A stretch of DNA of 64,000 nucleotides from assembly GCA_008632985.1 (NCBI GenBank), contig QPGO01000071.1, forward strand, positions 1 to 64,000, written 5' to 3'. The notes beneath the pieces are model-generated. The model was not told the DNA's origin and searched no databases. It was given only the letters and a program-made list of their open reading frames with translations. Positions 2 through 43,290 of this stretch are shown here, in pieces; the stretch's first letter is position 1, and every line of letters starts with the position of its first letter. The position numbers and the translations under genes were made by a program. Source of the stretch: Psammoneis japonica. Its lineage: Eukaryota.

Positions 2-1555
2 GTTGCAGTAATACAAGACAAGATTCTGTCCATTCCTCCGGATGCGGCTTGGGATTTTGGATTGGATATCACGACCCAACGAATTCAAGATACGGGGCCT
101 CATGGGTTGCATGGGAAGCTCGTCAACTCACCGACACGAGCGGTGCGAGGGTCCAACTGGACAGGTCGAGAAATGTGTTGGAGGCATGCTCCAGAGGAAT
201 ATGCCGCCATTCATTTTCACGACACCGATATGAGTGACTGCGAATGGCCAGTGTGCTATCAATGGAAGATCCCGTCCAATTTAAAGTCGGGAAATTACGC
301 CCTCCTCTTGCAAGCCGGAGAGCACAAGGATAATATTCCCTTTTTCGTTGTTCCGCCAAAAGGAAAGCGTCAAGCAGACTTGGCTGTACTTATCTCGACG
401 TTTACTTATGTCATCTACGGCAATCATGCGATGTCGGAATATCGGGAGGATGCAGACTGGCGGGCCAAGTGGCGACAGCAGGTTCAGGAGCCCAACGGCT
501 ATCCACACAATCCTTGCGATCACCCAGAGTATGGCTGGTCGACCTACAACACACATACTGATGGGGCTGGTGTCTGCTTGGCCTCTTGGCATCGACCTCT
601 TTTGAATTTACGGATTGGGTATGTTACCTTTCCGTTCCCCGAAGTGAACGGTTCTGGCTTGAGGCATTTCCCGGCCGATACCCACCTGACTGCTTGGTTG
701 GAGGCTCAAGGCATTACCTATGATGTGATTACTGACTGGGAGTTGCACACGGAAGGAAGCGACGTGTTGAAACCTTATCGAGTCGTAACAACTGGGTCTC
801 ATCCCGAGTATCATTCGGAATCGTCTCTGCAGGCGCTGAGCGACTACCGCCGTCAAGGTGGACGACTCATGTATCTTGGTGGGAACGGGTTCTACTGGAA
901 AATTGCAGTTGGAGATAACCTATTAGAAATCCGTCGAGGTGAGGGTGGAATTCGAGCGTGGGCATCAGACCCAGGCGAGTACTACCACCAACTCGATGGG
1001 CAATATGGAGGACTATGGCGTCGAAATGGACGAGCGCCGCAAGCCCTGGTCGGCGTTGGATTCTCGGCGCAAGGAAACTTTGTCGGTTCCCATTATAAAG
1101 TCAAGCCGCTTGCAAGAGCCAATCCAAGAACAGCATGGATCTTTGAAGGCATTGCAGAAGATGAGATTGGAAAGCATGGATTGTCTGGCCATGGTGCAGC
1201 CGGTTTCGAATTAGATCGCACGGATACGGCTTTGGGAACTCCCAGCCATGCTGTTGTTCTGGCGAGCTCAGTAGGCCACGATCCCAATGGCCCGTGGGTT
1301 TTGGTGTTTGAAGAACGCCTATCGCATCTTGTTAATTTGGTGGGAGTTGACAATGACGAGTTGATTCGAGCTGACTTGTCATTCTTTGAAACTCCGAGTG
1401 GTGGGGCGGTGTTCTCTACGGGATCCATTACCTACTGTGGGAGTTTGTTGACTAATGATTGCCGAAATGATGTTTCGCTTTTAACGAGAAATGTGCTTTT
1501 AAAGTTGCTGGACCCGAGATCTGAGTTTGTGGTCCCAGAACAGGGCGAAAAGTAA
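2..1555 (+). CDS. N,N-dimethylformamidase large (beta) subunit family protein, 5'-partial, no introns in the visible part
   Basis: Frame is open from base 2. Family-typical motifs: 'YAAIHFHDTDM..CEW', 'IPFFVVPP', 'STFTYVIYGN', 'WSTYNTHTDG', 'LRHFPADTHL', 'TGSHPEYHS', 'GGRLMYLGGNGFYW', 'GAAGFELD', 'GGAVFSTGSITYCGSL'. Confidence 0.85.
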   Translation, partial: VAVIQDKILSIPPDAAWDFGLDITTQRIQDTGPHGLHGKLVNSPTRAVRGSNWTGREMCWRHAPEEYAAIHFHDTDMSDCEWPVCYQWKIPSNLKSGNYALLLQAGEHKDNIPFFVVPPKGKRQADLAVLISTFTYVIYGNHAMSEYREDADWRAKWRQQVQEPNGYPHNPCDHPEYGWSTYNTHTDGAGVCLASWHRPLLNLRIGYVTFPFPEVNGSGLRHFPADTHLTAWLEAQGITYDVITDWELHTEGSDVLKPYRVVTTGSHPEYHSESSLQALSDYRRQGGRLMYLGGNGFYWKIAVGDNLLEIRRGEGGIRAWASDPGEYYHQLDGQYGGLWRRNGRAPQALVGVGFSAQGNFVGSHYKVKPLARANPRTAWIFEGIAEDEIGKHGLSGHGAAGFELDRTDTALGTPSHAVVLASSVGHDPNGPWVLVFEERLSHLVNLVGVDNDELIRADLSFFETPSGGAVFSTGSITYCGSLLTNDCRNDVSLLTRNVLLKLLDPRSEFVVPEQGEK

Positions 1556-33754: not shown

Positions 33755-35354
33755 CGCCGAGAAAAAAAAAACGCAAAAACCGTCATCCCGACTCGTCGAC
33801 CATGGCCCTAAGATCACTAACGTTGTCATTTCCTGAGGTATCTTGGTAGTAGAGTACGAGGAAATGACAGTGTGCTCTCATTGGACGACTACGTTGTGCC
33901 AGACGATATCAACGGCGTGGCTTCTCCTTGTGCGTAGTATTCGTCGTCGCCATATGGTGGAAGTGGCAATAAAATGGTACAATCCGTGCCGGGACGAGCC
34001 GTTGGGTCGCTCTCAAAACGACTGGAGCCGCCCATGGCCTCACAAATTTGCATGGCATAGTTCAATCCCAAGCCCGTACCATTGGCTTCTCCACTCGCCA
34101 CAAACTTCTCAAACACAAGTTTCTGTTCCTCTTTCGGTATCCCAGGACCCGTGTCTCCTACATCACGACAAGTGATTGTTGTTTCCACATCTTCCCATCC
34201 CACCCACAGCTGGATGGATCCAGTGACAGTATACTTCATTGCGTTGGATACAACATTTTGCAATACCTGTTGGATACGGTGGGCATCTCCCATGACAATG
34301 TCATGCGTCGTCGTAGTTTCTGCCTCCCATGTAAACTCAACACCCGACCGCAAGGAAGGGAGGGTCATTTTGTGAACATCGCAGACCAGTTGTCGGAGCG
34401 AAAAGCGATGTACGTGAAACTCCATTTTGCCCTCGTCAACCTCTCTCGAGTCCAAAAGGTTGTTCAAAATAGACGTACACTGCAAAGATTCATTCCCTCG
34501 ACCGATTCGCCATTGTCTCGGGAAGCTCCTCGGGCGGTGGCATGGACCCCAAGGCACTCGACATGGCAGAGAGAGGACTGCGCAGTTCATGAGCAAAGTA
34601 GGCCTGGATGTTTCTTTCCGTCTCAGCCTTGGCGCTCTCGGCCAGTGCCGTGCCCGTCATGACGGTGGCAATCTGGGAGAGAAATGTTGCCTTTGCCTTT
34701 CGGGCGTTTGTTTTCCATGCGCTCTCCTCAACGTGTCGACTCTACAGAATCTTTTAAAAAGGTGTTTCAATTCTTTGTCTTCTCAGCAATGATTTCAGTT
34801 ATTCAGTTTCGTCTGCCTCTCGATTCAGAGCTATTCAAATAGACTTTTTTGCTTGCTACAGGAAAAGCAGCCGAGCCTGCATAGGAGAACCTCGTATGCT
34901 ACTGTTTCAACATTGGACGAGCTGCTGTGAATGGTAGGTCTCTAGAGAGTACCGGTTTTCCATTTTCTTGGTTTTGTACCGCACCCTACGAAAACCAGCA
35001 CCACCACCTCACTGACCCTCGCATGATACTGCAGATTCAACAGTAGCTAGAGAAGCGCAGTTGCGAATTTTCCCGACACAGAGTGCCTTATTTCACAGAT
35101 TTCTGGTTTGGTACCGCACTTGCGAAGATCGGTACCACCCCCCCCCTTTTGCATTGTTGTCTTCGTGTAGACAACAAAATAATTGAAGAACACCTTGCAA
35201 CCGGATCGTTCGAGAAACAAAAATAAGCGAAGGTTTAGTTTTTCGGTCGAACCCGTACAGCCAACAACCTCCTGTCATCATGGACCCAAAACGCTTGACG
35301 TACTCATTTCCCCGTGTTGAAGCAATTACCTTTTAGAGAGTGTTAGAGAAGAAA

Positions 35355-36248
35355 TCATTGTTTCTTTTCCTTCTCAGAAGAAGAGGCGGACCTGTACGTC
35401 TTGAGGAGATATGTTGTCCCCAAAAGCATGGAGAGACAACAAACAAGTTGCACCTCTGTGAATCCTTGAAAATACCGCGATGAAAACATTCGGTCCGAAG
35501 GTGGTCGATAGCGATACATTTCAACAGTGAGCCTCAAAATAGGATAAAGCACCATAAACGCAGCGAAAAGCTGTCCATGTACAGGTAGCCGATTTTTTCG
35601 TTCCAATCGGAGCAGCACCCAACACAAGAGCAAATTACCGAGAAACGCATACAGTTGCGTCGCGTGCATAGGATCGCTGTAAGTATCGCTACGGTCTTTG
35701 TGATGGTGCCTCCGAAATTGCCTGTAAGCACTCAGCAGATACTCCAGTCCAAAAACGTCACGAATTGCACCATCCTCCTCAATCACTCTCCCAAAGCAAC
35801 ATCCTTCCAACAAACACCCGATCCTGCCAATTGAAATTCCCAGTGCCAATGGAGCTGACCCGAAATCGAGCACTTGCGCAACAGGCATTTTCTGAGCTCG
35901 ACTGTAAAAAGCAATAAGTAGTACAACCATTAGGATTCCACCATGCAAGGTCAATCCGAATGCAGGAATGAGCATGACGAGAAACGGGTTCTTTCCCCGT
36001 GCCCTCGCATTTGCGACAAAGTTCGCCCAGTTTACAAAGCAATACTGAAATCGCGCACCCCACAACCCCCCTACAATGGCGAGAAGGAGCAGAGATAAGC
36101 ACTGCTTGGTCGTGATATTAAATCGTTTTCTGGTTTTTAGCATCAGGATTCCATCGGCTACGAATGCTAAAGCAAGCATCAGCCCGTACCATAAAAAATT
36201 GATGCCAAAGGCTGAAAAGGCAATCGGACCACTGTTTATCTTTATCAT
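35355..36248 (-). CDS. lgt: Prolipoprotein diacylglyceryl transferase (Lgt) homolog, intronless
   Basis: 'FLWYGLM', 'GLWGARFQY', 'GLTLHGG', 'LGISIGRIGCLLEGCCFG', 'HATQLY', 'GQLFAAFMVLYPILRLTVEMYR', multiple TM segments. Start at MIKINSGP (36248); upstream ATGs at 36314 and 36344 are possible. Confidence 0.9.
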   Translation of the reverse strand: MIKINSGPIAFSAFGINFLWYGLMLALAFVADGILMLKTRKRFNITTKQCLSLLLLAIVGGLWGARFQYCFVNWANFVANARARGKNPFLVMLIPAFGLTLHGGILMVVLLIAFYSRAQKMPVAQVLDFGSAPLALGISIGRIGCLLEGCCFGRVIEEDGAIRDVFGLEYLLSAYRQFRRHHHKDRSDTYSDPMHATQLYAFLGNLLLCWVLLRLERKNRLPVHGQLFAAFMVLYPILRLTVEMYRYRPPSDRMFSSRYFQGFTEVQLVCCLSMLLGTTYLLKTYRSASSSEKEKKQ

Positions 36249-36667
36249 GGTGATATTTCTTTGTTTAGGCAGCAATATGGCAAGCGGGTAGCAAGATAGT
36301 AGAGAGAAGGTCATGGATCGACGCACATCGCATGCGGCATGCATCAGAACCTGAACACCGCCAGCGCGAAAGATCTTTCCAAAGATTTTCTTTTTTTTGT
36401 ATTTGCCGTTTTCGAAATGCCAACGGATAATAATTTCGGGGCTATCTTATTTATTTACCTTCAGGACGGTATAGTGAATTCAAGTTATTAATAGCTTTAG
36501 TGGCGTAGGAGATTATAGAAATGAAATTAATCAAAATCAAATATGTACATATTTATTTCTGAATAAAACGATTTTACTGGCATACTGTACGGTACTTGGC
36601 AGGCAGTTGGCAGGTTGGATATCGTCAAAGTAAAAACGCGTCATTTTTTCAGAAGAAAGAAGAAACA

Positions 36668-38242
36668 ATGAAGTGTTCTCCGACCGTCGAGAGCCGCACG
36701 TGGCTGACCTTGCTGCGGGCAGCCTTGCTTTCCATTGTTTTATTGTCTAAGAATAACCTGGTGTATGGCTGTAGTAGCGAAGGGACCACTTGCGCCACAG
36801 GAGAGTGTGTTTGTTCCGATACGCTTACAGCCGCAGAAGAAACGTCTTGTAAGTACACTTCGTGACTTGCGAGGCCTTGCTTCTAAACTCACGAACTGCT
36901 TTACCCTAAGATCGATTACTCACTATCCTGCCCTTCTTTCTTTTGCGCAATTTGCAGGTTGTAAGTAACCACGCAAACAAGAAAACGAGCTTGAAACTTT
37001 CTCATGATGTTTTTGCTGTTGTGTGTTTTGGTGCTTTTCGTGTAATCAGCCGACCTCGGAGCAGACAGCATTGGGTGCATTTCCTGTGATAATGATAACT
37101 TTCGATTTTGCGGTGACGTATCTACGTGCAATAGTTGCTCGGAAGGACAGTGTGTGTGTTCCGATGGACTTATTGATGAAGGCAGTTGTGAGTACAGTTT
37201 AGGACGGGCGACACATTATTTCTAGATGTTTTATCCCCATATGATTGCTCACTACCCCCTCCCTTGTTCGTCTTGCTCAATCTGCAGGTGGTAGGTAACC
37301 GTTGAATATGCAAACGAAGAGAACATGCTAGAAACGTTGATGTGTCTAATACTTTTTTTTGGTGTTCTTCTCGTGTACTTGTAATCAGCCGGTTTCGGAG
37401 CCGGTGATGATGGATGCATCTCCTGCACTTTCAGTGATTTTTGTTCTGATACGTCAAAGTGCAGCGAGGAAGGAGGAGGCGAACGCCGAGCCACCCGTCG
37501 CCTAAACTTGCAACATGATGACTATCTTCAAGTCCTTGACACGTGTGGTGACCTTGAATATGATGGCGCCATCTATGTCAATTCTCACTTTTTTGCGGTT
37601 TTCTATCCATCTGCGGCCACCATCCATGCATCCTGCCCCATGCTCGCCTACCAGCTTCGTTTCGACGAAGACAACTGGCAAGTAGATAGCGCTGATCAAG
37701 TTGAAGAGGACCTTGCGGTTGAAATTATTGTCGACACCTACGAAAACATTGGCCATGGAGAACGTATCTTTCCACGCGACCAGTCGTTTTCAACTGGAAC
37801 GTACACACTCAACCAAGTCGCCGACGCTGTCGCTTCTGTGCAAGTGCCCGAGACAGGAGCCTGGGACGTCCTGCACAACTCGTGCTTTGCCATGGCCACT
37901 CAAATGGCTGTCGCTCTAGACTGGGATATCGACAATGGTATGCTTCCCTACGTTAGCCAACGTCTAAGGATGCATCACACTAGCAATAATGTCCAGAAGG
38001 CCATCAAGACGCGAAACTTTGTCAAATACTTTCAAGGCGGATACCTTGAGCCGGTTCTCCTCAAGACCGTCGAGGCGTGGATTGGCGGAGATGGTGGTTT
38101 GGGCGGTGCTCCTGAGGGACAGGCGCTTCTCGACTTTATCATCAATGCTGATCCGGAAGAGGATGAAGCGCTTGCTGTGTTTTACGACGAGCTTGTTGAT
38201 AGCTATGTTGATCGCGATGTTCGTACCACCAAGAAGAATTGA
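36668..38242 (+). CDS. Secreted Cys-rich repeat protein; exons 36668-36848, 36958-36960, 37050-37187, 37288-37290, 37389-38242
   Basis: Signal peptide, four canonical GT-AG introns and a consistent phase. Two repeats 'C..G.CVCSD.L....SC...GA...GCISC.....C.D.S.C', then an 'RRL' motif and a ~245-aa C-terminal domain. Confidence 0.8.
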
Positions 38243-41115: not shown

Positions 41116-43290
41116 ATGGTGGCAACGACGAGCTTTACGCAGGGCAGCGCAACCTCAATGGGTTCCAGCTCCATGTTCTCGCCCTCTACCAATGCAAGTC
41201 TCTTTTCTCCTCGAGACACGAGCATGGGCGGTGGTAGCGCGACACCGCGTTTGTTTTCGCCTACCGCCGCAACCTCGTGGTCTGTCGAGAGCGCAAGACA
41301 AGAGCTCCGTGAAGCGGTTTCAACCTTGTCCCATTGTGGACTGAAGCTAGCAGCCAAGTGGGCATGCGAACAATTGATTGGATTGCCTCCTCCAACAGAG
41401 CTGGAAGAAGCTGCTCCTCCAGTCATCAAGGGAATCAGCGGTGGTGATGATATGGCTGTGTATGCGAAATCATTGATGGATCTGGGAGAGTATGTGCACG
41501 CTGCGGCGGTATTAAGTCAGCCCTCCAAGGATATCGGTACCATTTCAGCTCCACTTCCGCACTTATCGTCTTTTGGGATCTACATTAGAGCATATGCAAT
41601 GTACTTGGCAGGAGAACGAAGAAAGGAGGAAGAGATCGTTGAACTCAAGTAGGTGATGTTGTTGTTGATGAATTGATTCTTAGAAGTTATGTTGTCAATT
41701 TGGGATCGGAAAAGGAACTGACGCACTCTCTTATGTTTTTGACTTGGGAACAGGGAACCTCTGGAACGAACGACTCTTCGAAATCCGTACTTGTCGCAGC
41801 TCTGTGATGAATTGTCCGAGGCTTATGCTTCGAAGAGTCTGGATGCGTTTGGTTTGTACGTGTACGGCATTGTCCTGAAAGAACGAGAACAATCTCGTCT
41901 AACTTCCATCGCCGACTCTTCCGTTGCATCGCACGGAATCCTCATGGAGTCTATCTTGAGCTTCCCATGGAATTGGAGTGCTTGGCTTGATTTGGCCGAG
42001 TTGTGTTTGGACGAACCGACACTCCATCCAGTTGTCGAAAACAAGCTTCAGAGCCTGGCGAGTCACTACATGTACCATTTCTTTTGCTCTCACGTCTTTG
42101 GAGAAGATCAAGCGCAAGAAAATGCCATTGCCATTATGGAACGACTCATGTATGCCGAACAACCGCCACACGACCATGATGAAGATGCACAAGACGAGGG
42201 TGCTGCCTTGTTTCGAAACTCACCCTATCTCGTCTCTCGCATGGCGGTGGCACACTATCATTTGAGGGCGTTTGATGTGGCCGAAGATTGCTTCGTCGCC
42301 CTTCGGGACCGCGATCCGTACCGCTTGGAGGATATGGATGTCTATTCCAATATTCTCTACGTTCGCGAAAACCGCGTTGCCTTGTCTCAACTCGCCCACG
42401 GCTGTGTACGAGTCGACAAGTACCGTCCGGAGACGTGCTGTATTGTGGGGAATTACTATTCTATAAAGTCGCAACGCCCCAAGGCTGTCTGGTACTTTCA
42501 GCGCGCCCTCAAGCTGAATCGTAACTATCTGAGTGCGTGGACTCTCATGGGGCATGAATATGTGGAAATGAAAAACACAGCGGCCGCTATGGAAGCCTAC
42601 CGTCGTGCCGTGGATGTCAATGAACGTGACTACCGTGCTTGGTATGGATTGGGGCAGACGTACGAGATTCTTGATATGCATCTGTATGCTCTCTTTTACT
42701 ATCGCAAGGCCGCTGCGTTGAGGCCCTATGATGCACGCATGTGGTGTGCCATGGGCGGCTGCTATTTGGGTCTCAACAAGCGTGCCGACGCGATTCGGAC
42801 TTATGAACGGGCAGTGTCACACAATGACACAGAGGGCATTGCAACGCAAAAGTTGGCGGCCCTCTATCGGGAAGACGGGCACGACGAAAAAGCTGCACGT
42901 TGTTATATGCGTCATTTGGAACTTCGTTATGAAGCGACCGACCATCACGCCGATCAAGCACCAGCGTCGATTGAAGCGGTGCTCAACAGTGTCGTCGTGC
43001 AGGCAGCGGAAGCTGAAGCGCTCTTGTTTTTGGCATCGTATCACAAGAAACACGGGGAGTACGAAACGGCGGCCTTGTGTTGTTCTCGGCTGTTGGAGTA
43101 TGCCGGGCCGGAAAAGGAAGAAGGCAAGGCACTGTTGAGAGAAATCAGATCTCGACGAGAAGAACAGTCTGGAATGCGGCAGCAGCAGCAGCAATCCGGC
43201 AGAGCTGGCCTTCGACTAGATGTGTCAGAGGATTCTTCAATGGACGCCAGCTCTGTCAAAGATGAATCGTCTTTTGAATTTTCACCATAA
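41116..43290 (+). CDS. CDC23: Anaphase-promoting complex subunit 8 (TPR); intron 41649-41753
   Basis: 'GLKLAAKWACEQL', 'DPYRLEDMDVYSNILYV', 'DKYRPETCCIVGNYYS', 'AWTLMGHEYVEMKNT', 'DYRAWYGLGQTYE'. Confidence 0.95.

What the first reader, a model, noticed from the sequence alone, without database searches (positions are those of the whole stretch)
35355..36248. Intact bacterial lipoprotein-lipidating enzyme Lgt in a eukaryote, with a possible ER-retrieval tail
Seen: an intronless Lgt retaining the WYG, HGG, GR and R..VE..R motifs, embedded among intron-containing genes, and ending ...KEKKQ (KxKxx pattern). Known: Lgt transfers diacylglycerol from phosphatidylglycerol to the lipobox Cys of bacterial prolipoproteins and is not a standard eukaryotic enzyme; KxKxx is a COPI retrieval signal. 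Inference: a horizontally acquired Lgt domesticated in the secretory pathway.
Basis: partly seen in the sequence, partly recalled or inferred. Interest (0 to 1): 0.75.

Follow-up and report, generated by a model that had tools for sequence, protein, structure and literature searches.

The report
Bacterial-type Lgt gene in a diatom
A diatom chromosome carries an intact, intron-free copy of the bacterial enzyme that starts lipoprotein lipidation, acquired from bacteria and ending in a tail that looks like an ER-retention signal, which hints that a pathway thought to be purely bacterial may work in a eukaryote.

Summary
Window 35355-36248 (minus strand) is an uninterrupted 297-codon ORF, 329 codons from the first ATG. 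It matches Pfam LGT (E 1.9e-42), aligns end to end with E. coli Lgt and folds like 5azb. It keeps the equivalents of Y26, H103, R143, G154, Y235, R239, E243 and R246. N146 and E151 are Cys, which is a published bacterial variant. In two bacterial genomes that variant is the only Lgt and abuts lspA.

The contig is eukaryotic. APC8/Cdc23 has only diatom best named hits and an intron, and the nearest gene has a GTAAGT intron.

An exhaustive search of 1.84 billion representatives found two close relatives at about 46% identity, both unnamed. All other hits are bacterial at 40% identity or less. The three form a clade inside a bacterial group whose only named members are Lentisphaerota.

All three end in a di-lysine motif, against 7 of 270 other homologues.

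Horizontal acquisition is well supported. ER residence is suggestive only. Activity, expression, substrates and Lsp are untested.

The parts
35355..36248 (-). Lgt-family coding sequence of 297 codons plus TGA, read from the conserved Met (MIKINSGPI...); no intron
   Evidence: Searches give the ORF. Pfam LGT E 1.9e-42. Aligns to E. coli Lgt 5azb at E 7.5e-16 over residues 39-320 of the 329-aa form. Relatives P0002 and P0120 align in a single frame. AF2 pLDDT 87.9, and the only significant PDB match is 5azb.
36249..36344 (-). Possible 32-codon N-terminal extension (ATGs at 36344 and 36314); hydrophobic (MTFSLLSCYPLAILL); not conserved in relatives
   Evidence: The upstream parts do not align with P0002. 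Which ATG is used is unknown, because no RNA data could be obtained.
36183..36191 (-). WYG motif (equivalent of E. coli Y26)
   Evidence: alignment. Y is nearly invariant and G invariant in alignment A1; both are nearly invariant in A4.
35937..35945 (-). HGG motif (equivalent of E. coli H103-G104-G105)
   Evidence: The two close relatives have Q in place of H.
35790..35828 (-). Lgt signature motif in its Cys form, GRIGCLLEGCCFG (E. coli G142-G154). R143 and G154 are kept; N146 and E151 are Cys
   Evidence: 244 of 272 retrieved homologues carry the C..CC form. The variant is described in PMC13251419 section 13.
35511..35546 (-). TM6 motif Y-x3-R-x3-E-x2-R (equivalents of E. coli Y235, R239, E243, R246)
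   Evidence: R239 and R246 are invariant, and Y235 and E243 nearly invariant, in 150 sequences.
35358..35372 (-). C-terminal KEKKQ, a di-lysine (KxKxx) candidate COPI/ER-retrieval signal
   Evidence: Relatives end in EKKTT, the KKxx form. 7 of 270 other Lgt homologues meet the rule.

Best explanation
This is a genuine nuclear gene of a diatom, acquired by horizontal transfer from a bacterium. The nearest named relatives are Lentisphaerota, in the PVC group. It encodes a complete seven-helix Lgt-family enzyme of the Cys-signature subtype.

Shown:
- family membership and fold
- retention of the PG-binding and catalytic Arg, Tyr and Glu residues
- a eukaryotic setting on both sides
- bacterial ancestry
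- very narrow distribution

Inferred:
- Translation starts at Met 36248.
- The first helix acts as a signal anchor, so the short N-terminus and the active-site cavity face the ER lumen (the equivalent of the periplasm) and the C-terminus faces the cytosol.
- There the KEKKQ tail binds COPI and keeps the enzyme in the ER, which in diatoms is continuous with the outermost plastid membrane.
- The enzyme transfers the diacylglyceryl group of phosphatidylglycerol to a cysteine thiol of translocated proteins, giving thioether-lipidated membrane-anchored proteins.

My odds for each step:
- real host gene of bacterial origin, about 0.9
- catalytically competent diacylglyceryl transferase, about 0.55
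- ER or cER residence, about 0.4
- protein cysteines as the acceptor, about 0.35
For: Family and fold:
- Pfam LGT E 1.9e-42.
- E. coli Lgt 5azb aligns at E 7.5e-16 over nearly the full length.
- AF2 model pLDDT 87.9, pTM 0.86. Its only PDB match at E <= 0.001 is 5azb (E 4.4e-11, TM 0.65/0.68).

Residues:
- Equivalents of Y26, H103, R143, G154, Y235, R239, E243 and R246 are present.
- R239 and R246 are invariant, and R143, Y26, Y235 and E243 nearly invariant, in 150 sequences.
- The Cys form of the signature motif occurs in 244 of 272 homologues.
- In 2 of 2 bacterial genomes examined it is the only PF01790 match and lies next to lspA.
- It is recorded in the literature (PMC13251419 section 13).

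Host setting:
- Cdc23, kinases, zf-MYND, LRR and WD40 genes lie on both sides.
- The best named Cdc23 hits are all diatoms.
- Introns sit about 5.3 kb away and in the adjacent gene.
- GC3 is 0.48 against 0.485-0.54 for neighbours.
- RSCU correlation with host ORFs is 0.39 (host ORFs against each other 0.36-0.71), against 0.13 with a bacterial lgt.

Origin:
- Of 6245 hits, only 2 reach E <= 1e-30.
- The three sequences form a clade (99 in FastTree; SH-aLRT 100 in IQ-TREE).
- That clade lies inside a 29-row group (SH-aLRT 95). Of 17 clusters looked up in that group, 3 carry organism names, and all 3 are Lentisphaerota.

Constraint:
- At about 46% identity the three relatives still share the motif residues and the stop position.

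Tail:
- 3 of 3 clade members meet the di-lysine rule, against 7 of 270 others.
- E. coli Lgt has a periplasmic N-terminal strand and head and a positively charged cytoplasmic face (PMC4728403 passages).
- The model has seven long helices, which puts the C-terminus on the cytosolic side.
Against: - No expression data: no RNA run could be listed.
- No activity or localisation data.
- The NCBIfam equivalog TIGR00544 scores 111 bits, below its cut-off of 118.9.
- N146 and E151 are Cys. N146 is called absolutely required in E. coli, E151A/Q are inactive, and the M. smegmatis N146C paralogue is presumed weakly active.
- The two close relatives have Q at the H103 position, and H103Q is inactive in E. 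coli.
- Whether the genome has Lsp, Lnt or lipobox proteins is unknown, because no genome is held. The window has no Lsp match better than E 8.2.
- Phosphatidylglycerol is mainly a plastid and mitochondrial lipid in eukaryotes (recalled), which sits poorly with an ER location.
- The di-lysine pattern is short. P0002 and P0120 share theirs by descent, so there are at most two independent observations.
- P0002 and P0120 are unnamed contigs of 5.2 and 2.5 kb, and their host is unknown.
- The sister of the clade is unresolved (support 13; an open fork), and the tree is unrooted.
Confidence: 0.5

Rival explanations
1. The enzyme has been repurposed. The transferred Lgt is active but no longer, or not only, lipidates lipobox proteins. 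It would use its PG-binding cavity for lipid remodelling, or transfer diacylglycerol to a different acceptor, in the ER/cER or another membrane.
For: - No eukaryotic lipobox proteins are known (PMC12462473 passage; PMC8689077 passage).
- The clade has a long stem, 1.0 changes per column.
- It has its own conserved head and loop motifs (EYLLSAY, RP.PSD.MF.S).
- H103, proposed as the peptide-binding site, is Q in two of the three members.
- PMC13251419 suggests that divergent Lgt subgroups may use other substrates.
Against: - The PG-contacting and catalytic residues are those of ordinary Lgt.
- The Cys-signature type sits next to lspA in bacteria, so the type as such is a lipoprotein enzyme.
- No alternative acceptor is known for any Lgt (recalled).
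Confidence: 0.2
2. A neutral or decaying transfer. The gene sits in the genome but is not expressed, or makes an inactive protein, and the di-lysine tail is chance.
For: - No expression evidence.
- Very narrow distribution.
- Residues essential in E. coli are replaced (N146C and E151C; H103Q in relatives).
- TIGR00544 scores below its cut-off.
- The neighbouring histidine-kinase gene carries a frameshift, so the region, or the assembly there, is not flawless.
Against: - The frame is fully open and covers the whole Pfam profile.
- Three relatives at about 46% identity keep the start Met, the stop position, all the Arg/Tyr/Glu motif residues and a di-lysine end. That is not expected without selection.
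- Codon usage is in the host range.
- The Cys substitutions are normal for the donor subfamily.
Confidence: 0.15
3. Organelle-targeted Lgt. Translation starts at 36344 or 36314, and the extra 22-32 residues act as a targeting signal to the plastid or mitochondrion, where phosphatidylglycerol is abundant. The enzyme would then work there and not in the ER.
For: - Two in-frame ATGs lie upstream, and the stretch between them and Met 36248 is hydrophobic (MTFSLLSCYPLAILL).
- PG is a plastid and mitochondrial lipid (recalled).
- Cyanobacterial thylakoid-lumen proteins are lipoproteins (PMC8038367, abstract only).
Against: - The upstream stretch is not conserved in P0002, and the Met at 36248 is.
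- I saw no aromatic residue after a signal-peptide cleavage site of the ASAFAP type, as diatom plastid presequences have (motif recalled, judged by eye only).
- The nearest relatives are Lentisphaerota, not cyanobacteria.
- A conserved di-lysine end points to the ER.
Confidence: 0.1
4. Contaminant or chimeric assembly: a bacterial fragment wrongly joined into a diatom contig.
For: - The gene is bacterial in type and has no intron.
- No reads could be examined.
Against: - Eukaryotic genes flank it closely on both sides of one contig. An intron-bearing signal-peptide gene starts 320-420 nt upstream. Downstream on the same strand lies a histidine-kinase gene (domain call only), and beyond these Cdc23 and kinases.
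- GC and codon usage are host-like.
- The best bacterial hits in the list are 40% identical or less.
- It ends in a eukaryote-style di-lysine tail.
Confidence: 0.03

Closest known systems
Bacterial phosphatidylglycerol:prolipoprotein diacylglyceryl transferase Lgt (E. coli Lgt, PDB 5azb/5azc; Pfam PF01790)
   Same: - Seven-helix fold with N-terminal strands and a head between TM4 and TM5.
- Equivalents of Y26, H103GG, G142-R143, G154, Y235, R239, E243 and R246.
- Similar length.
   Different: - 25% identity in the Foldseek alignment to 5azb.
- N146 and E151 are Cys.
- The head is poorly predicted (pLDDT 52-57 for residues 161-190).
- Encoded in a eukaryotic nucleus.
- Ends in a di-lysine tail.
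Cys-signature Lgt of uncultured bacteria, named members Lentisphaerota (clusters of P0137, P0163, P0198); also Hydrogenedentes, Myxococcota, Atribacterota, Omnitrophota and Clostridiales
   Same: - Same GRxGCxxxGCCxG signature.
- 29-40% identity across the listed hits.
- The diatom clade nests among them.
- In two such genomes the gene is the sole Lgt and abuts lspA.
   Different: - The diatom clade sits on a long stem, 1.0 changes per column.
- It has its own conserved head motif EYLLSAY and loop motif RP.PSD.MF.S.
- It has low-complexity inserts in P0002 and P0120.
- It has a di-lysine end.
P0002 and P0120 (unnamed ENA metagenome proteins)
   Same: - About 46% identical to the window protein in the pairwise alignment.
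- Same start Met (P0002), same stop position and same motifs.
- Di-lysine end EKKTT.
   Different: - Q in place of the H103 equivalent.
- Longer head inserts.
- Host unknown; contigs of 5171 and 2501 bp.
Lgt-like EST of Perkinsus marinus (Pm04168)
   Same: Another report of an Lgt BlastX hit (E 2e-23) in a protist data set (PMC2868825, one passage).
   Different: It is an alveolate. Only a table-style mention exists, with no analysis.
C-terminal di-lysine (KKxx/KxKxx) COPI retrieval signals of ER membrane proteins
   Same: K at -3 and -5 in the window protein and at -3 and -4 in the relatives, at the very C-terminus of a tail predicted to be cytosolic.
   Different: Never tested for this protein. 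One library search found a single paper that holds both 'KKXX' and 'Phaeodactylum' (listing only). The rule itself is recalled from yeast, mammalian and plant work.

Membership tests
Lgt (Pfam PF01790) | Score above Pfam's gathering cut-off over the whole domain | tested here: met
   145.7 bits against 24.9; profile positions 1-238 of 240.
Lgt equivalog (NCBIfam TIGR00544) | Score above the curated equivalog cut-off | tested here: not met
   111.0 bits against a cut-off of 118.9 (E 6.6e-32), profile positions 8-274 of 280. A narrow miss.
Lgt | Seven-TM body with arms and head, as in E. coli Lgt | tested here: met
   AF2 pLDDT 87.9 and pTM 0.86. 5azb is the only PDB match at E <= 0.001 (E 4.4e-11, TM 0.65/0.68). 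The head is of low confidence.
Lgt | Y26 and the H103GGL motif | tested here: met
   LWYG and LHGGI align to HWYG and FHGGL. The relatives P0002 and P0120 have Q at H103.
Lgt | Signature motif G142-R143-x-G-N146-x3-G-E151-x2-G154 | tested here: inconclusive
   G142, R143, G145, G150 and G154 are kept; N146 and E151 are Cys. PMC13251419 section 13 reports N146 to C and E151 to C/D in distant Lgt. 244 of 272 homologues have this form, and it is the sole Lgt next to lspA in 2 of 2 genomes examined. No Cys-type enzyme has been assayed, as far as the texts I read show.
Lgt | TM6 residues Y235, R239, E243, R246 | tested here: met
   All four are present. R239 and R246 are invariant in 150 sequences.
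Lgt | Transfers diacylglycerol from PG to the lipobox cysteine | not testable with these tools
   Needs complementation or an in vitro assay.
Bacterial lipoprotein pathway | Lsp (and Lnt) and lipobox substrates in the same genome | not testable with these tools
   No whole genome is held. Within the 64-kb window, tblastn with a bacterial Lsp gave nothing better than E 8.2. The adjacent signal-peptide gene is not a convincing lipobox protein.
COPI di-lysine retrieval signal | Lys at -3 and at -4 or -5 from the C-terminus | tested here: met
   KEKKQ. Relatives end in EKKTT. 3 of 3 in the clade meet the rule, against 7 of 270 other homologues.
COPI di-lysine retrieval signal | Tail exposed to the cytosol on an ER membrane protein | tested here: inconclusive
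   Inferred from the N-out, seven-helix topology of E. coli Lgt and the seven long helices of the model. Insertion into the ER is itself an inference.
COPI di-lysine retrieval signal | ER localisation that depends on the lysines | not testable with these tools
   Needs tagged expression in a diatom.

The most novel reading that the evidence does not exclude
A small diatom lineage runs bacterial-type protein lipidation inside its endomembrane system. An ER or cER-resident Lgt, held there by a di-lysine signal, would attach phosphatidylglycerol-derived diacylglycerol to cysteines of secretory proteins. That would be the first lipobox-type S-diacylglyceryl lipoproteins made by a eukaryote.
Probability: 0.25. 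Interest if true: 0.85.

Novelty: new variant of a known kind. Interest (0 to 1): 0.58.

Why it matters
Diacylglyceryl lipoproteins are treated as a hallmark of bacteria:
[quoted passage not shown] - the latest survey of Lgt considers only bacteria and archaea (PMC13251419: no occurrence of 'eukaryot' in the main text)

An intact, constrained Lgt in a diatom nucleus, fitted with a eukaryotic sorting signal, gives a concrete and testable case. The question is whether this chemistry has crossed into a eukaryotic secretory system, and how a polytopic bacterial membrane enzyme is adapted after transfer.

Such lipoproteins are potent TLR2 agonists (recalled), so a eukaryotic producer would also interest people who study algal-animal interactions.

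If the gene turns out to be silent or inactive, it is one more of the many bacterial genes found in diatom genomes.

Tried and rejected
1. RNA evidence: the look-up of sequencing runs listed no RNA holder for 34800-37000. This is not evidence either way.
2. Whole-genome search for Lsp, Lnt and extra Lgt copies: no genome is held.
The three-sequence alignment A3 was used in its place.
4. Metagenome scan with A3: 80 loci were kept of 241 relatives, all at 35% identity or less, so no further member of the clade.
5. Genome scan with A3: only 2 distant bacterial loci.
6. Viral scan with A3: none, so there is no sign of a giant-virus route.
7. Neighbouring signal-peptide gene as a possible substrate ('...NLVYG|C', ATG at 36668): rejected. 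'GC(S/I)S...C' recurs in later Cys-rich exon modules, and a Lys sits at -7. The lipobox rule used here is recalled.
8. N146C and E151C as evidence of inactivity: rejected as decisive.
9. The histidine-kinase gene as an example of an intron-containing neighbour: rejected. The frame switch lies within about 30 nt, so it is a frameshift.
10. Earlier findings of this scan: nothing by place, sequence or words.
11. Literature: searches found no paper on an Lgt in diatoms or other algae. The only eukaryote mention is a Perkinsus EST. Supplements were not opened, including Fig. S8 and Table S2 of PMC13251419, which may show the Cys-type distribution.
12. No AU test, no rooting and no dN/dS were done, because no DNA of P0002 or P0120 is available.
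Full report
**1. What is in the sequence.**

On the minus strand a frame is open from 36446 down to a TGA at 35355-35357. In-frame ATGs lie at 36344, 36314 and 36248. From 36344 the product has 329 residues (P0001).

The protein matches Pfam LGT (PF01790) at E 1.9e-42, 145.7 bits against a cut-off of 24.9, across profile positions 1-238 of 240. The NCBIfam equivalog TIGR00544 scores 111 bits, just under its cut-off of 118.9.

Among solved structures the only sequence match is E. coli Lgt (5azb/5azc, E 7.5e-16), aligned over residues 39-320. An AlphaFold2 model built on 150 sequences has pLDDT 87.9 and pTM 0.86. It shows two N-terminal strands and seven long helices, and the region between helices 4 and 5 is of low confidence. 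Foldseek against the PDB gives one match at E <= 0.001, 5azb (E 4.4e-11, TM 0.65/0.68).

**2. Motifs.**

Through the alignment the equivalents of E. coli Y26 (LWYG), H103 (LHGG), G142-R143, G154, Y235, R239, E243 and R246 are all present.

The positions of N146 and E151 are Cys.

In E. coli, E151A/Q and all tested H103 variants are inactive (PMC4728403, passages). N146 is listed among the absolutely required residues (PMC13251419, section 13).

[quoted passage not shown] It adds that an M. smegmatis paralogue with N146C is presumed to be weakly active.

Of the 272 homologues I retrieved, 244 have the C..CC form. Two bacterial genomes were reached through loci L081 and L082. In each, the Cys-type gene is the only PF01790 match, and it lies directly beside an lspA (Peptidase_A8) gene.

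I read the Cys signature as the normal state of a large bacterial Lgt subfamily and not as damage. I found no assayed enzyme of this type in what I read.

**3. The setting is a diatom nuclear contig.**

ORFs on both sides carry eukaryotic domains: APC8/Cdc23, two protein kinases, zf-MYND, LRR and WD40. The named best hits of the Cdc23 ORF are all diatoms (Attheya 61%, several Cyclotella, Skeletonema, Thalassiosira, Mediolabrus, Cylindrotheca). The top hit overall reaches only 69%, so the species is not close to any named one in that database.

Cdc23 contains an in-frame stretch of about 100 nt with stops at about 41650-41750 that its homologue lacks, which is an intron.

The gene that diverges from the Lgt start has its ATG at 36668, 320-420 nt away. 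It encodes a signal peptide and Cys-rich modules in several exons, and its first exon ends at GTAAGT.

The Lgt ORF itself aligns with its relatives in one frame.

GC is even across the window. The ORF's GC3 is 0.48, against 0.485-0.54 for neighbours. Its RSCU correlates 0.39 with pooled host ORFs (host ORFs against each other give 0.36-0.71) and 0.13 with a bacterial lgt.

A contaminant or a chimeric join is therefore unlikely, though I could not look at reads.

**4. Relatives and origin.**

A word-indexed search of 5.8 billion clusters gave one hit at 38% identity (P0002). The other 117 listed hits are Lgt proteins at 23-37% identity in the listing. Those that carry a name are bacterial: Clostridiales, Atribacterota, Myxococcota, Omnitrophota and others.

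The exhaustive HMMER search of 1.84 billion representatives gave 6245 hits at E <= 0.001. Only two reached E <= 1e-30: P0002 (432 aa) and P0120 (316 aa, N-terminally cut). Searching with P0002 returned only these two above the bacterial level. Both are single, unnamed ENA contigs of 5171 and 2501 bp.

Scans of JGI metagenomes, of one genome per prokaryote species and of IMG/VR added no further member.

No hit from MMETSP or EukProt, and none named as a eukaryote, appears among the hits listed (one search's library carries no names). The same database holds Cdc23 from many diatoms. Only the best 118-150 hits are listed, so more distant eukaryotic Lgt homologues cannot be excluded. A Perkinsus EST hit to Lgt has been mentioned in print (PMC2868825).

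In a FastTree tree of 267 rows the window protein, P0002 and P0120 form a clade (support 99) inside a 35-39-row group (85-89).

In an IQ-TREE LG+C20 quick tree of 67 rows the clade has SH-aLRT 100 on a stem of 1.0 changes per column. That tree used the 39-row group minus two long-branch rows, 12 named rows and 18 random others. The clade lies in a 29-row group with support 95.

Of 17 clusters of that group that I looked up, three carry organism names, and all three are Lentisphaerota. The immediate sister is unresolved, and the tree is unrooted.

Horizontal transfer from a bacterium, perhaps of the PVC group, into a narrow eukaryotic lineage is the simplest reading.

At about 46% identity the three proteins still share the start Met, the stop position, the motif residues and clade-specific motifs (EYLLSAY in the head, RP.PSD.MF.S before helix 7). 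That argues for selection on the protein.

**5. The tail.**

The window protein ends KEKKQ (K at -3 and -5). P0002 and P0120 end EKKTT (K at -3 and -4). Among the other 270 Lgt homologues 7 meet the KKxx/KxKxx rule.

P0002 and P0120 share their tail by descent, so this amounts to about two independent observations against a background of 2.6%.

E. coli Lgt has its N-terminal strand and head in the periplasm and a positively charged cytoplasmic face. With seven helices the C-terminus is cytoplasmic. If the protein inserts into the ER in the same sense, the tail faces the cytosol, where COPI reads such signals (rule recalled).

Against it, phosphatidylglycerol is chiefly a plastid and mitochondrial lipid in eukaryotes (recalled). 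In diatoms, however, the ER is continuous with the outermost plastid membrane (recalled).

**6. What I think it does.**

Most likely it is a live, horizontally acquired Lgt that sits in the ER/cER with its cavity towards the lumen. There it would transfer diacylglycerol from PG to protein cysteines. My odds fall at each inferred step: host gene of bacterial origin 0.9, active transferase 0.55, ER residence 0.4, protein acceptor 0.35.

Rivals are:
- a repurposed enzyme with another acceptor (0.2)
- a silent or inactive relic (0.15)
- an organelle-targeted form that starts at an upstream ATG (0.1)
- an assembly artefact (0.03)

Whether the genome has Lsp, Lnt or lipobox proteins could not be tested. 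The window has no Lsp match (best E 8.2). The neighbouring signal-peptide gene, which at first looked like a lipobox protein, is not one.

**7. Novelty.**

Searches of the paper library found no study of an Lgt in a diatom or other alga. Recent texts describe these lipoproteins as bacterial only. The 2026 survey of Lgt does not use the word eukaryote.

The protein is a member of a known family by Pfam and by fold. The eukaryotic host, the clade-specific features and the di-lysine end make it a new variant. Bacterial genes in diatom genomes are common (recalled), and nothing here shows expression or activity.

Noticed in passing
window 33889-34656 (-), frame switch near 34488-34519: The histidine-kinase gene just downstream of the Lgt ORF has its H-box (AHELRSPLSAM) in one frame and the rest of HisKA plus HATPase_c in another. 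The switch falls within about 30 nt, which is too short for an intron. It is a 1-nt frameshift, either an assembly indel or a pseudogene.
   Followed up: partly
window 36668-38242 (+): This gene is transcribed divergently from the Lgt start. It encodes a signal peptide followed by repeated Cys-rich modules (GC(S/I)S..C..C) in several short exons, with the first intron starting at GTAAGT at 36849. It then has a 244-285-aa C-terminal part with no Pfam match. Its '...VYG|C' after the signal peptide resembles a lipobox only superficially.
   Followed up: partly
window about 41650-41750 (+): APC8/Cdc23 (41206-43287) has a single short intron of about 100 nt that stays in frame but carries stop codons.
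   Followed up: yes
L083 (G001:C90) 1083-2196; G002:C13 1067-2177: In two uncultured bacterial genomes lspA and a Cys-signature lgt are adjacent, 25-28 nt apart, and that lgt is the only PF01790 match in each. This is circumstantial support that N146C/E151C enzymes are working Lgt.
   Followed up: partly
proteins P0018, P0036, P0042, P0051, P0054 and others (alignment A1): Many bacterial Cys-type Lgt homologues of 420-510 aa carry a PDZ domain (PF17820/PF00595) inserted in the periplasmic head between the signature motif and TM5, plus an extra N-terminal helix. The diatom protein has no such insert.
   Followed up: no
window 2-1555 (+): An ORF running off the window start matches DMFA2_C, the C-terminal domain of the N,N-dimethylformamidase beta subunit-like family, at E 6.5e-93. 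This may be another gene of bacterial type on the same diatom contig.
   Followed up: no
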